DNA of 58,724 nt from a virus (Duplodnaviria > Heunggongvirae > Uroviricota > Caudoviricetes), in IMG/VR virus record IMGVR_UViG_3300012007_000007, positions 163,434 through 222,157 of that record. One strand, written 5' to 3'. The notes beneath the pieces are model-generated. The model was not told where the DNA came from and made no database searches. It worked only from the letters and a program-made list of their open reading frames with translations. Position numbers and translations under genes: made by a program. Of this stretch, positions 779-5,490 are shown piece by piece. Positions within the stretch are counted from its first letter, which is position 1. Each line of letters opens with the position of its first letter.

Positions 779-1633
779 TTATGTATATACACTTACCAGT
801 GAAAGGTCAGATGGATAATGTGTTCTTTTACCAACCGTCTTGCCGCTTAGATATTTTGGTATGAATTTCTTAAATGTGTAATACAAAGCCACTTTGGATA
901 TTTTTAATTCATTAGAAAAATCCTCTAGCTTTGAATAATTACCGGAATGATACCTATCCCATAATTCCCTGGCACGTTGAATTGCTGCATTATGTAGTTC
1001 AATCCTTGGTCTTTTAGTGATTTTCCCGGAGACGGTATTTATGCCAGATGATGCATTCGCTGCACATATTTTGCCACACGGTTGACCCTTTTGTTTTGCA
1101 TAAGCAAATATTTTACTTCTTATAGAAGTGCTCTGCCCATGATACAAATTTCTTCCACGGACCCATTCTTTAGCATCTGGCGGCATTCGGAATACCTTAG
1201 ATTCACCGGTTATATAATTGGTATACCACCGGGTTCCGTAATGTGAATTTCGCTGGCCCCGTTGTGTTATTGCCGTTGTATACCCAACTACTTTAGCAAA
1301 TTGACAACGCAATGTTTCGTATATTCTGGCATTTATATATCGACTGTGGTTATCATTAGTACTACGCATTCTCCAAAACGCAAACATCATTTTACGGTAT
1401 TCATTTGATTCGGGTGGATACAATTTCGTTAATAGCCAATGGCATATAAAGTGTTCTTTAGCAGTAAGCAACGCTCGGTTGCATAATCGGTCTACACCAC
1501 CCAATGCCTTTGGTATAATATGGTGTAGTTCATAGTATTGGCCATGTTTTTGTTGCCAACGACGCTGCTCATAATCAGCTTGCGCTCGCAAAACGATACT
1601 TGCGTATATTCTATTGTAATTCATAACAAACAT
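779..1633 (-). CDS. Free-standing HNH homing endonuclease with C-terminal HTH-like region
   Basis: ELHHIIPKALGG...RALLTAKEHFICHWLL HNH motif; AT-rich; inside the tRNA cluster; TATAAACT motif at 1660-1667 upstream. Confidence 0.85.
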   Translation of the reverse strand: MFVMNYNRIYASIVLRAQADYEQRRWQQKHGQYYELHHIIPKALGGVDRLCNRALLTAKEHFICHWLLTKLYPPESNEYRKMMFAFWRMRSTNDNHSRYINARIYETLRCQFAKVVGYTTAITQRGQRNSHYGTRWYTNYITGESKVFRMPPDAKEWVRGRNLYHGQSTSIRSKIFAYAKQKGQPCGKICAANASSGINTVSGKITKRPRIELHNAAIQRARELWDRYHSGNYSKLEDFSNELKISKVALYYTFKKFIPKYLSGKTVGKRTHYPSDLSLVSVYT

Positions 1634-1796: not shown

Positions 1797-1881
1797 TGCC
1801 AGCGGTTGGACTCGAACCAACGAAAGCAGTTTAATGCGAGAGGGTTACGGCCTCCTGGAATTGCCACTATCCGACGCTGGC
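1797..1881 (-). tRNA. tRNA-Tyr(GTA), C33 variant
   Basis: GCCAGCG/CGCTGGC acceptor, GGAGG-CCGTAAC-CCTCT anticodon arm, long variable arm. Confidence 0.88.
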
Positions 1882-1882
1882 T

Positions 1883-1952
1883 TGGTGGAGCATTTCGTAT
1901 GCAAGCCCCCAGCATTAGAGCCAAGCTCAACAGGCACCATCTATGAAGCCCC
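1883..1952 (-). ncRNA. 70-nt tRNA-like RNA with Ala-type ends (GGGGC...GCTCCACCA), no canonical cloverleaf
   Basis: Ends pair G1:C, G2:C, G3:U, G4:C, C5:G followed by A-CCA; fills the gap between tRNA-Asp and tRNA-Tyr. Confidence 0.55.
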
Positions 1953-1962
1953 ATATTTTTAA

Positions 1963-2036
1963 CGATGCCTGAGAGATTCGAACTCTCGAATGTCGGTTAG
2001 ACAGACCGATGTGTTAGGCCACTTCACCAAGGCACC
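1963..2036 (-). tRNA. tRNA-Asp(GTC), U37 variant
   Basis: GGTGCCT/AGGCATC acceptor, TCGGT-CTGTCTA-ACCGA anticodon arm, G73. Confidence 0.85.
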
Positions 2037-2044
2037 ATTCTTAG

Positions 2045-2375: not shown

Positions 2376-2449
2376 TGGAACGTGACGGGGCTCGAACCCG
2401 TAACCTCCTCGTTGCGAACGAGGCGCTCTTCCAATTGAGCTACACCCCC
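2376..2449 (-). tRNA. tRNA-Ala(CGC) with 1-nt acceptor-stem bulge
   Basis: 5' GGGGGTG, 3' CAC-G-TTCC-A; CCTCG-TTCGCAA-CGAGG; G3:U70 retained in the bulged register. Confidence 0.88.
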
Positions 2450-2615: not shown

Positions 2616-2677
2616 ATAAAGAAAAACACATCCGGAATTTCAATCTGCAGCAACGCTGCTCGAACGCTGCACTTTAG

Positions 2678-2751
2678 TGGAACGTGACGGGGCTCGAACC
2701 CGTAACCTCCTCGCTGCCGGCGAGGCGCTCTTCCAATTGAGCTACACCCCC
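2678..2751 (-). tRNA. tRNA-Ala(GGC) second copy, C33 variant, 1-nt acceptor-stem bulge
   Basis: Same body as 2376-2449; CCTCG-CCGGCAG-CGAGG. Confidence 0.82.
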
Positions 2752-2765
2752 AAACGGTTAAACGG

Positions 2766-2798
2766 AAAGGGCGGTTGCCGCTGATGCAACCGCCCTTT
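2766..2798 (-). terminator. Intrinsic terminator directly upstream of the first tRNA-Ala (attenuator terminator)
   Basis: Perfect 13-bp inverted repeat AAAGGGCGGTTGC-ATCAGCG-GCAACCGCCCTTT followed by CCGTTT on the minus strand. Confidence 0.8.
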
Positions 2799-2845
2799 TC
2801 GTCTCTTGTAAACCTTTCGTCTACCTGGAACTAGGTTGCATCAGC
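2780..2845 (-). promoter_or_regulatory. Antiterminator helix of a putative attenuator
   Basis: Perfect 12-bp inverted repeat: minus-strand GCTGATGCAACC (2845-2834, last leader codons) pairs with GGTTGCATCAGC (2791-2780, terminator 5' arm and loop). Confidence 0.75.
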
Positions 2846-2938
2846 CTCCGCGTGTTCTGCGAAATCCAACACGGCAAAATAGCGGTTACCCTGTGCGGCA
2901 CCCGCTAAGTTACAAATATTGTTGAATTGCTTCTGCAT
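2831..2938 (-). CDS. Putative attenuator leader peptide MQKQFNNICNLAGAAQGNRYFAVLDFAEHAEADAT (35 aa, 8 Ala)
   Basis: Translated by hand (not in the ORF track); AAGGAA ribosome-binding site upstream of ATG; last codons coincide with the antiterminator strand. Confidence 0.72.
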   Translation of the reverse strand: MQKQFNNICNLAGAAQGNRYFAVLDFAEHAEADAT

Positions 2939-3018: not shown

Positions 3019-5490
3019 TTATTTTTTCCTGTCGCGGACGCAGTACACCGTGAAATACCCCCGGAGTTCCCTCAGGGAACCCTCGGCCGTTATCGTTATC
3101 TTCCCCTTTGACCGGTCCAGCTCCGCGACGGCGTACAGGGTCCCGTCCTCTTCCCGGGAAGTCTCGTTGTCGTCATCGGGAATATCGTCGTCAGCTTCGC
3201 CGATTATTGTCCATGTTCTCGCCGGTATTCCCCTCATCCCCTTCCGGAGCTCCCGGGAATTCCCGCCCCTCCCGGGAGGAATCACCAGCGGAATCATGAC
3301 CCTGCCTGTGTTTGACGGCATGTCGACGTCGCTTGCCGTGGCCGGCATGGTGAAACCGGCATCCTCCATGGAACGGATGTCCAGCGCCGGGAACCTCAGC
3401 CCGAGCTGCGGCAGCGTCCGGTCGATGTTGATTCCGAACTCCTCGGTACCGGTCTCGTAGTAGCGGGACTCGTCGAGGTCTTCATCCACGGAGACCCCGT
3501 CCTCCGCGTCCCGGTCCCTCTCGGGCCGTACCGCCTGGTGCCGGCGTTCCATGTTCCCGTCGACGAAACCCTCGAACAGGCATTCGGACACGGTATCCCT
3601 CCCGTCCCCGGGGGTTGCCTTCACCGGGAAGTCCCCCTGGTGCGATACCCGGAACTTGCGGAACACCGAGAGGCGGTCGTCGTCCATGTCGAATTCCGCC
3701 GTCGAGCCGTGCCGCATCGCCATGGAGATGAACTCGTCGACCGTCGGTAGGCGCCAGCCTTCCGGTATGGCGGTGGGGACGTATTGCGCCCGGTACTTGA
3801 CGAAGTTCCTTCCCGGCGTGGAGATGTCGTCGACCACGACCGGCTGGCCGTTCACCGTGTATGACGGCGGGTACGACCGGCAGAAGCCTAGCGGGCTGGC
3901 AATCTCGAGCGCGCACCAGTCGTTGAACATGATGGACATGGTACCGTCCTCGGCGTAACTGGTCACATCGTGGTTCTCGGCTCCCGGAATCGGGTCGCAG
4001 TCGTCCCCGCCCAGGTTCTCCGAGCGCCATTTCTTGTAGAGCGAGCAGCTGCTGTCGTAGTTGGCGGTCCCGAGGCCGATGTCCGACTGTACCTGGCTGA
4101 GGACGGCGACTTCGTCGGCACGGTACACGGAGATGCCGCCTCCCGGCATACGGAGTACCGACAGGTTCCGGTATTGCGGTCTCGTGTCTTCCGTGTCCTC
4201 CTCCACGCACTGGTCCCCGTCGTATTGCACCGGGTCCCCGGGTTCGGCAGTGGGGTCATCCGCCACGCACAGGCTGACTTCCGTCCTGAACGAGTACCGC
4301 GCCTGCACCAGCCGCATGTCCTCGTCGTACCGCCTCCATCCCTCCTCGACGGCCTGCCTGTCCGCCGCGAGCCCGTCACCGCGCATGATGTTCCGGAACG
4401 GCACCGGTATGGTCGACACGGGTTCCAGCAGCCACGTTGTCCCGGCATCGGTAACGGCGCGCATCCTGCCCCCTTCAATTTCCATGTTGCGCGCCTTCCC
4501 GCTGGACGGCTTCCTGGAGAGCGCGCCCGCTATCCTGCCCGCCATGAGCCTGGCCCAGCCGAGACAGAACCTGTTGTCGCGTTCGCGGGCCGTGCGGAGC
4601 GCCGCCTCGTACCTGCGGTAGTCCCTCTTGGTGTACGGTGTGCACAGCCTGTAGAATGGCGCTCCCAGCAGTTCCGAGAGTTCCCGCTCGGAATACTTGT
4701 TGTCGCCCTTGCGCTCGTCCACGTTGTCGTGGGCGTGGTTCCACCGGTTGTTGACGTGCATGAGCCGGCCGTCCGGGCCGATGTCTATCCCGAGCATGGA
4801 CTCCCCGTAGAGGGGGTCGTCCTCGGTCATCGTCTCGAAACCCGGTAGGACGGCAAGGTAGAGCTTCACCATGGACAGCATGGTGGTACCGTCCTTGGCG
4901 GTGCGGCGGTTGAATGAGTACGAGTCGAACATGCTCTTGCTGTTGAGGTGGCACCACCCGTGGGGCTGCGTGTACTTGTAGTATGGCTTCCCGGTCTCGA
5001 ACCGGTCCAGCCATATGATTCGGTATCTCCTTGGACCGTAGCTGATTTTCCTCAGTTCGCGCTTCAGTTCCTTCCAGTTGTCCGCCGCGGTCCCCCCGTA
5101 GCGCTCGGTAAGTTCCTTGAACGATAGCTCCGTCCCTCCCGTGGCGAGGTGGCGGGTGTATTCCTCGAAGTGCGCGATGGATATTATGCGGATGTAGTCG
5201 CGCAGGTCGGCCAGCTGGCGGAAGTCCTCGTCGCCGGTACCGAACAGCAGTTCGCCGAAAGCGATACGGGCAGCCCCGGGAGCGAACTTAATCTTGCACT
5301 GGCCGTCACGGAAGAACTGCCTTCTGAGTTCCATGTACGCCGCCCTGGTCCACGAGGTTATCCCGCGGTTCCGCGCAATCTCGTCGTATATGCGTTCCAG
5401 CTCCATCCTGTTGGGGAGCGAGAGCAGGACCTTCTTCGTGTAGCGGTATGCGTCGCCCTCGGAACCGGGGCCCAGTTCTTTTTCCGGCAT
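3019..5490 (-). CDS. Large hypothetical protein (823 aa) with FISUMP/DUF1566-like C-terminal motifs
   Basis: PEGWRLPTVDEF and terminal YCVRD motifs; start set at MPEKEL because the longer ORF overlaps a terminator and a structured RNA. Confidence 0.65.
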   Translation of the reverse strand: MPEKELGPGSEGDAYRYTKKVLLSLPNRMELERIYDEIARNRGITSWTRAAYMELRRQFFRDGQCKIKFAPGAARIAFGELLFGTGDEDFRQLADLRDYIRIISIAHFEEYTRHLATGGTELSFKELTERYGGTAADNWKELKRELRKISYGPRRYRIIWLDRFETGKPYYKYTQPHGWCHLNSKSMFDSYSFNRRTAKDGTTMLSMVKLYLAVLPGFETMTEDDPLYGESMLGIDIGPDGRLMHVNNRWNHAHDNVDERKGDNKYSERELSELLGAPFYRLCTPYTKRDYRRYEAALRTARERDNRFCLGWARLMAGRIAGALSRKPSSGKARNMEIEGGRMRAVTDAGTTWLLEPVSTIPVPFRNIMRGDGLAADRQAVEEGWRRYDEDMRLVQARYSFRTEVSLCVADDPTAEPGDPVQYDGDQCVEEDTEDTRPQYRNLSVLRMPGGGISVYRADEVAVLSQVQSDIGLGTANYDSSCSLYKKWRSENLGGDDCDPIPGAENHDVTSYAEDGTMSIMFNDWCALEIASPLGFCRSYPPSYTVNGQPVVVDDISTPGRNFVKYRAQYVPTAIPEGWRLPTVDEFISMAMRHGSTAEFDMDDDRLSVFRKFRVSHQGDFPVKATPGDGRDTVSECLFEGFVDGNMERRHQAVRPERDRDAEDGVSVDEDLDESRYYETGTEEFGINIDRTLPQLGLRFPALDIRSMEDAGFTMPATASDVDMPSNTGRVMIPLVIPPGRGGNSRELRKGMRGIPARTWTIIGEADDDIPDDDNETSREEDGTLYAVAELDRSKGKITITAEGSLRELRGYFTVYCVRDRKK

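What the first reader, a model, noticed from the sequence alone, without database searches (positions are those of the whole stretch)
1883..1952. 70-nt CCA-ending RNA with an alanine acceptor end but no cloverleaf
Seen: GGGGCUUCAUAGAUGGUGCCUGUUGAGCUUGGCUCUAAUGCUGGGGGCUUGCAUACGAAAUGCUCCACCA. Its ends match those of tRNA-Ala and tmRNA (GGGGC...GCUCC-A-CCA, G3:U70). It is the only element in the cluster with a genome-encoded CCA, and it ends 1 nt before tRNA-Tyr. I cannot fit D and T arms; an anticodon-like CU-CUA-AU heptamer is present but has no good stem. Established: T4 carries tRNA-like RNAs of unknown function in its tRNA cluster. Inference: an alanylatable decoy or mini-tmRNA-like RNA, or a decayed tRNA; it is a fifth Ala-identity RNA in an apparently Ala-regulated operon.
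Basis: partly seen in the sequence, partly recalled or inferred. Interest (0 to 1): 0.72.

Follow-up and report, generated by a model that had tools for sequence, protein, structure and literature searches.

The report
Clipped phage RNA mimicking alanine tRNA
This 70-base stretch is a shortened copy of an undescribed small RNA gene of rumen phages whose knotted 3' end copies the business end of alanine tRNA, as plant-virus tRNA mimics do; its job is untested.

Summary
The sequence is real (minus strand, 1952-1883, 1 nt before tRNA-Tyr), but the 70-nt unit is a deletion product. Against a related phage, 390 nt are gone: the first 10 nt are the 5' end of a true tRNA-Ala(GGC) gene, joined to the last 60 nt of an 87-103-nt RNA gene. 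I found six distinct full-length copies, all in tRNA clusters of phage-like contigs, with no Rfam match. Covariation supports two H-type pseudoknots. The 3' one (33 nt, 31-33 identical) holds an internal GGGGC/GCUCC helix with G3.U70, A73 and an encoded CCA: an alanine acceptor built as in plant-virus tRNA-like structures, but without T, D or anticodon arms. The CUA heptamer is not conserved, TAG is a stop here, and tmRNA features are absent. Best guess: a trans-acting acceptor/CCA decoy against tRNA-targeting host defence (0.4). Expression and charging are untested, and the window copy may be dead. The scan noted pseudoknot-CCA RNAs on other DNA, not this family.

The parts
1883..1952 (-). 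Chimeric, 5'-truncated copy of the small RNA gene (10-nt tRNA-Ala scar + 60-nt 3' part of the family RNA)
   Evidence: two adjoining blocks of near identity to L011, 390 nt apart there; model positions 39-92 only
1943..1952 (-). First 10 nt of a phage tRNA-Ala(GGC) gene, left by the deletion; joint between 1943 and 1942
   Evidence: tRNA-Asp + spacer + these 10 nt match L011 at 94 of 95 positions; strains X2, X6, X10 carry the L011 base at the one difference, 1947
1933..1937 (-). GUGCC, orphan 3' strand of the family's 5' pseudoknot (its partner was deleted)
1918..1928 (-). Optional GAGC/GCUC hairpin between the two pseudoknots (present in L011, L186, window; absent in L028, L029, L030, L233); overlaps the CUCUAAU heptamer (1920-1914)
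1899..1915 (-). Stem S1 of the 3' pseudoknot: AUGC (1915-1912) with GCAU (1902-1899); C-G becomes U-A in L186 and L233
1887..1909 (-). Stem S2, alanine-type acceptor helix: GGGGC (1909-1905) with GCUCC (1891-1887), G3.U70; A-rich loop 1898-1892
   Evidence: invariant in all 7 sequences; pairing inferred from complementarity and ensemble
1883..1886 (-). Discriminator A and genome-encoded CCA, 1 nt before the RNase P site of tRNA-Tyr
1797..1881 (-). tRNA-Tyr(GUA), downstream neighbour
1962..2037 (-). tRNA-Asp(GUC), upstream neighbour, identical to the L011 gene
2761..2938 (-). Context: Ala/Phe-rich leader peptide (35 aa) with overlapping antiterminator/terminator at the head of the operon

Best explanation
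SHOWN: the window holds a 5'-truncated, chimeric allele of an undescribed 87-103-nt RNA gene family that sits like a tRNA gene in tRNA clusters of rumen-type phages. SUPPORTED BY COVARIATION: the RNA folds into two H-type pseudoknots; the 3' one stacks a 4-5-bp stem under a 5-bp (up to 7-bp) helix identical to the bacterial tRNA-Ala acceptor and ends in ACCA, so the acceptor is formed without using the RNA's 5' end. INFERRED: it is co-transcribed with the tRNAs, and the RNase P cut at the next tRNA leaves the CCA end (spacer 0-1 nt); the CCA is encoded because the RNA lacks the elbow that CCA-adding enzymes read. It cannot decode (no anticodon, T or D arm). Most likely it works in trans as a decoy for host proteins that read the first acceptor base pairs and CCA of tRNA-Ala (anti-phage acceptor/CCA-attacking enzymes), charged by AlaRS or not, within an operon induced when Ala/Phe decoding slows. 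The window copy keeps the whole acceptor pseudoknot but lost the 5' pseudoknot, so it is either a partly working or a dead allele.
For: Deletion anatomy; junction also spanned by contigs of three other studies. Family. Pairing: 84 of 84 cells paired in 3 helices, 3 pairs with two-sided change, 0/500 shuffles reach it, slid controls 24-54%. 3' 33 nt 31-33/33 identical while the middle is 29-71% identical, across loci of 34-52% GC. Discrete cassette: cleanly absent from the same slot in relative L241; stands before Tyr, Asp, Gly or a protein gene, so not tied to one tRNA. G3.U70 is the main Ala determinant (PMC9976931). toxSAS enzymes read CCA plus the first five acceptor pairs and accept minihelices (PMC11559606); Cas12a3 cuts CCA tails of minimal acceptor substrates (PMC12851939). 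Context: four tRNA-Ala genes with irregular acceptor stems, Ala/Phe-rich leader, a PolyA_pol/CCA-adding-type enzyme.
Against: No expression, charging or binding data. Only six distinct full-length sequences from about four lineages; S1 rests on one compensatory change and S2 never varies, so it has no covariation support. In the window copy the 5' scar competes for the same 3' strand (0.90 against 0.06 in a nested-only ensemble; rough energies of the two folds are not separable). Most relatives lack the RNA, so it is dispensable. No host enzyme that attacks tRNA-Ala acceptors was identified for this host. A similar pseudoknot-CCA element in L006 has A3-U70, not G3.U70, so Ala identity may not be essential to the architecture.
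Confidence: 0.4

Rival explanations
1. The pseudoknot plus CCA is only a maturation and stability handle (a tRNA-like 3' cap, as on plant-virus RNAs); the working part is the 5' pseudoknot, and the window copy, lacking it, is a dead remnant.
For: Other CCA-ending RNAs of these phages have different acceptors; the window allele arose in a deletion that removed redundant tRNA genes; neighbouring DNA is as conserved as the element among close strains, so no selection on this allele is shown.
Against: The 3' domain, loops included, is the most conserved part, more than a generic cap needs, and it keeps the full Ala identity set in all members.
Confidence: 0.27
2. An alanylated RNA that donates Ala in ribosome rescue (mini-tmRNA or RqcH-type Ala tailing).
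For: Ala identity; relatives carry tmRNA and PTH2 in the same cluster; no tmRNA found in this contig (contig 78% complete).
Against: No T arm or D loop for EF-Tu, SmpB or the A site, no conserved stop-ended frame; no Rfam tmRNA match. RqcH reads the tRNA-Ala(UGC) anticodon (own knowledge); the UGC triplet in the RNA is not conserved (UAC in L186, L233) and is paired.
Confidence: 0.1
3. A cis-acting processing element or self-cleaving ribozyme that helps release the neighbouring tRNA.
For: 0-1 nt from the next tRNA in five of six members; double pseudoknot; theta ribozymes abut phage tRNAs (PMC10879173).
Against: L030/L031 have no tRNA downstream; the pseudoknots are in series, not nested; no ribozyme family matched; removed without trace in L241.
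Confidence: 0.08
4. The window's 70-nt fusion is itself a new functional RNA that uses the tRNA-derived 5' end as acceptor.
For: The fold is feasible (-13.1 kcal/mol with S1 and the hairpin); the allele persists in samples of 2013-2025.
Against: Seen only in near-identical strains; the 5' end is a scar with an 8-nt microhomology 6 nt from the joint; whole-sequence z +0.23.
Confidence: 0.1
5. Decayed tRNA or amber suppressor.
For: First 10 nt come from tRNA-Ala; a CUA heptamer is present.
Against: The other 60 nt belong to a non-tRNA family; heptamer absent in 4 of 6 members and split between two stems; TAG ends 49 of 115 long ORFs.
Confidence: 0.03

Closest known systems
Plant-virus tRNA-like structures (TLS-Val, TLS-His, TLS-Tyr; PMC8127992, PMC9976931)
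   Same: Acceptor helix made as a pseudoknot so the RNA can carry a 5' extension; 3' NCCA; a second pseudoknot upstream, as in TLS-His.
   Different: Here a free-standing 87-103-nt gene of a DNA phage; Ala identity, which is not among the three TLS classes; no T arm, no anticodon arm; aminoacylation not shown.
Phage T4 species 1 and 2 RNAs (rnaC, rnaD; NC_000866, PMC9697503)
   Same: Small non-decoding RNA genes of unknown function packed in a phage tRNA cluster; rnaD has an encoded CCA and no T loop.
   Different: No sequence similarity; neither shows the compact pseudoknotted acceptor or G3.U70; rnaC has a T arm.
tmRNA (RF00023)
   Same: Ala acceptor identity, pseudoknots.
   Different: No T arm, no tag frame, a quarter of the size, acceptor pseudoknotted.
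Theta (HDV-like) ribozymes of gut phages (PMC10879173)
   Same: Short double-pseudoknot RNAs next to phage tRNAs.
   Different: Pseudoknots in series, no P3/L3 or catalytic C position, sits before rather than after the tRNA, ends in CCA.
Synthetic Ala mini- and microhelices
   Same: Acceptor helix with G3.U70, A73, CCA is enough for AlaRS (own knowledge; minihelix work cited in PMC9976931).
   Different: Natural gene; the helix is crossed by a pseudoknot loop that may hinder AlaRS.

Membership tests
tRNA | Cloverleaf with D, anticodon and T arms | tested here: not met
tRNA-Ala identity | G3.U70, A73, G1-C72, G2-C71 on an acceptor helix with CCA | tested here: met
   invariant in 7 sequences; helix inferred, not probed
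Amber suppressor | Conserved CUA in a 7-nt loop on a stem; TAG recoded in the phage | tested here: not met
tmRNA | T arm and SmpB-binding elbow | tested here: not met
   (one TTCAA 5-mer in L030's variable region only)
tmRNA | Conserved internal tag frame ending in a stop | tested here: not met
   three-frame translations
Viral tRNA-like structure (TLS) | Pseudoknotted acceptor stem with 3' NCCA | tested here: met
   descriptor reached by 2 of 400 shuffles; one compensatory pair only
Viral tRNA-like structure (TLS) | T-arm and anticodon-arm analogues | tested here: not met
Viral tRNA-like structure (TLS) | At the 3' end of a viral RNA genome or mRNA | tested here: not met
   discrete gene in a DNA phage tRNA cluster
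Viral tRNA-like structure (TLS) | Aminoacylated by a host synthetase | not testable with these tools
   needs AlaRS assay
T4 rnaC/rnaD | Sequence or structure homology | tested here: not met
Stable RNAs of phage tRNA clusters (loose class) | Discrete non-decoding gene with CCA end between tRNAs | tested here: met
Stable RNAs of phage tRNA clusters (loose class) | Accumulates as a stable RNA | not testable with these tools
   no RNA run of this phage on offer
HDV-like/theta ribozyme | Nested double pseudoknot with P3/L3 and catalytic C | tested here: not met
   parse; no Rfam match
Y RNA (YrlA) | Model match and Ro60 partner | tested here: not met
   no match over the element; DUF2828 near L028/L233 but not found in this contig (the latter without a positive control); TROVE itself not searched

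The most novel reading that the evidence does not exclude
The family is an alanine-accepting tRNA-like structure of bacteriophages: a plant-virus-style pseudoknotted acceptor on a free small RNA that host AlaRS charges and that the phage uses to absorb acceptor/CCA-targeting immunity; it would be a new amino-acid class of TLS and the first in a DNA phage, with related elements of other acceptor identities in the same clusters.
Probability: 0.25. Interest if true: 0.82.

Novelty: new variant of a known kind. Interest (0 to 1): 0.55.

Why it matters
Small RNAs in phage tRNA clusters (T4 rnaC/rnaD) have had no known function for 50 years. This family is small and has a sharp handle: five invariant acceptor pairs, G3.U70 and CCA, which one in-vitro charging or toxin assay can test. 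It also suggests that phages reached the pseudoknotted-acceptor design known from plant viruses. The caveat is that the window's own copy is a deletion chimera, so experiments should use a full-length member.

Tried and rejected
Exact 5' 20-mer in viral contigs: no hit, because that end is a scar. Central 17-mer: nine chance hits. Patterns gave only known members or chance hits. Bacterial/archaeal genomes: no member (0; 112 pattern hits, none scored by the profile). Cultured phages and plasmids: nothing. Five whole relative records and several loci lack it (many are fragments). A first reading that paired 5' GGCGU with AUGCU (RNAfold) and the GCAU/AUGC hairpin were dropped: the G-to-A change in L186/L233 breaks the hairpin and is explained only by S1. 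Hammerhead, twister, HDV and guanidine motifs were considered by eye and have no Rfam match. Relaxed ARAGORN was uninformative noise. Supplements of PMC10690425 are not held, so I cannot exclude that the family is among its unnamed candidates. Literature searches found no description.

Full report
Observation. The quoted RNA is window 1952-1883 on the minus strand, between tRNA-Asp (1962-2037) and tRNA-Tyr (1797-1881), 1 nt before Tyr. The window is the end of a 222-kb virus contig with 31 tRNA genes, none with encoded CCA. Relatives come from cattle and sheep gut samples and carry Fib_succ_major domains, so a Fibrobacter-like host is an inference. ARAGORN and Rfam see nothing at the element, and alone it folds no better than shuffles (z +0.23). 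The phage uses TAG as a stop (49 of 115 long ORFs).

The 70-nt unit is a deletion chimera. Relatives fetched through the DNA ligase gene include L011/L012, which hold nt 11-70 at 59 of 60 identity, also 1 nt before tRNA-Tyr. In L011 the order is Asp, Ala(GGC), Ile, Ala(CGC), Ala(UGC), the RNA, Tyr. The window matches L011 through tRNA-Asp, the spacer and the first 10 nt of Ala(GGC) (94 of 95), then jumps 390 nt into the RNA gene. An 8-nt microhomology lies 6 nt from the right break. The direction is clear because the lost 5' end is shared with distant phages. Contigs of three other studies span the same joint and differ in the element only at 1947, where they have the tRNA-Ala base (one is at low depth), so this is a real allele and not an assembly error. 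The end-to-end GGGGC...GCUCC pairing is therefore an accident of the deletion.

The family. Pattern scans found further copies in L028/L034, L029, L030/L031, L186 and L233: six distinct full-length sequences of 87-103 nt, all in tRNA clusters, loci 34-52% GC, about four lineages (L028, L029 and L233 are related). A model of them scores the window at E 1.6e-12 over positions 39-92 only. No member was found in prokaryotic genomes, cultured phages or plasmids, nor in Rfam. It behaves as a gene cassette: it precedes Tyr, Asp, Gly or a protein gene and is cleanly absent from the same slot in L241.

Structure. All six parse alike. The 5' domain is a hairpin whose loop GGYRY pairs with a downstream RURCC after a variable hairpin and a conserved AAAGA; this helix takes four forms with two two-sided changes. 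The 3' domain is AUGY, UG, GGGGC, UU, RCAU, an A-rich 7-nt loop, GCUCC, ACCA. AUGC/GCAU becomes AUGU/ACAU in L186 and L233, a compensatory change, and the loop of that stem pairs with the 3' end: an H-type pseudoknot. All 84 cells of the three helices pair; no shuffle of 500 reaches that, and slid controls give 24-54% (relatedness inflates such counts, and the acceptor helix itself never varies). The descriptor is reached by 2 of 400 shuffles. The last 33 nt are 31-33 identical between lineages while the middle is 29-71% identical. The terminal helix has G1-C72, G2-C71, G3.U70, G4-C69, C5-G68 and A73, the bacterial Ala set (PMC9976931). Building the acceptor as a pseudoknot is how plant-virus TLSs keep a 5' extension (PMC8127992). 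There is no T, D or anticodon arm; the CUA heptamer occurs only in members with the optional hairpin, and no tag frame is conserved.

The window copy keeps the 3' pseudoknot and the optional hairpin and has lost the 5' pseudoknot. Its tRNA-derived 5' end competes for the same 3' strand; rough energies cannot choose between the folds (-13.1 against -14.5 or -6.6 by two pseudoknot models). Either fold shows the same five acceptor pairs and ACCA. Flanking DNA is as conserved as the element among close strains, so selection on this allele is not shown.

Mechanism, inferred. The RNA is probably cut out of the tRNA transcript, the RNase P cut at the next tRNA leaving CCA (spacer 0-1 nt in five of six members). 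Lacking arms, it cannot decode or act as tmRNA. What is held fixed is what acceptor-reading proteins touch: toxSAS enzymes read CCA and the first five pairs (PMC11559606), Cas12a3 cuts the tail of minimal acceptor substrates (PMC12851939), AlaRS needs little more. The operon has several irregular tRNA-Ala genes and an Ala/Phe-rich leader with terminator/antiterminator, and the phage has a CCA-adding-type enzyme. I put a trans-acting decoy at 0.4, a mere 3' stability handle at 0.27, a rescue role at 0.1, a functional neo-fusion at 0.1, a cis or ribozyme role at 0.08, decayed tRNA at 0.03. No host target was identified and nothing here is experimental.

Comparison. It is not homologous to T4 rnaC or rnaD, fails tmRNA, tRNA and theta-ribozyme tests, and meets only the acceptor-pseudoknot feature of TLSs. 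I found no description, with the Fremin candidate lists unreadable. Earlier scan notes report pseudoknot-CCA and double-pseudoknot RNAs in other phages (unchecked) but not this family. I file it as a new variant of a known kind. Interest 0.55: a new, testable RNA family with an unusual design, tempered by few sequences, no expression data and a truncated copy in this window.

Noticed in passing
L006 17000-17062 (+): CCA-ending element 1 nt before tRNA-Ile with a pseudoknotted acceptor (6+6 pairs, 0/400 shuffles) ending GCUCC-ACCA like this family, but with A3-U70 and two hairpins in the loop; not scored by the family model.
   Followed up: partly
L233 about 4400-4465 (+); also L028, L029, L241: Another CCA-ending element before tRNA-Arg that parses as a pseudoknotted, Leu-like acceptor (0/400 shuffles) and resembles tmRNA pseudoknot 1 in sequence; weaker case in L186 before tRNA-Gly(GCC).
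   Followed up: partly
L001 13662-13848, L005 16847-16968: 122- and 187-nt RNAs with Ala-like ends and a T arm but no cloverleaf, in the tRNA-Ala block; T4 rnaC-like in outline.
   Followed up: partly
window 2761-2938 (-): Leader peptide with antiterminator/terminator; conserved in L001, L005, L010, L011, L013, L014 (6-11 Ala, several Phe), less Ala-rich in L004 and L006.
   Followed up: partly
window 2377-2449, 2459-2531, 2541-2615, 2679-2751 (-): All four tRNA-Ala genes have irregular acceptor stems (an extra base on the 3' strand); the same in L001, L004, L010, L013. L011 and L014 use a second odd tRNA-Ala type with a divergent D arm that ARAGORN partly misses.
   Followed up: no
genome 158553-159206 and 159282-159567 (-), upstream of the window: Two long ORF-free segments ending in encoded ACCA just before tRNAs; the first is conserved in L001; no Rfam match.
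   Followed up: partly
window 2616-2678 (-): A 56-63-nt spacer with a hairpin and a CAGATTGA(C)A motif recurs between tRNA genes in L001, L004, L006, L011, L014; possible internal promoter or small RNA.
   Followed up: no
L001 19925-20284, L013 21728-22090; L010/L011/L013 PTH2 genes: Relatives carry tmRNA and peptidyl-tRNA hydrolase in the tRNA island; neither was found in this contig (78% complete).
   Followed up: partly
window 779-1633 (-): 284-aa HNH-like homing endonuclease ORF inside the cluster, just after tRNA-Tyr; a homologue directly follows the RNA in L030.
   Followed up: no
window 1797-1881: tRNA-Tyr differs at 5-6 positions, mostly anticodon loop and variable arm, in strains that are otherwise near identical.
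   Followed up: no
L233 10588-12384, L241, L246: Phage-encoded GH10 xylanase next to a DUF2828 gene and the tRNA cluster; L246 also has PolyA_pol and RtcB.
   Followed up: no
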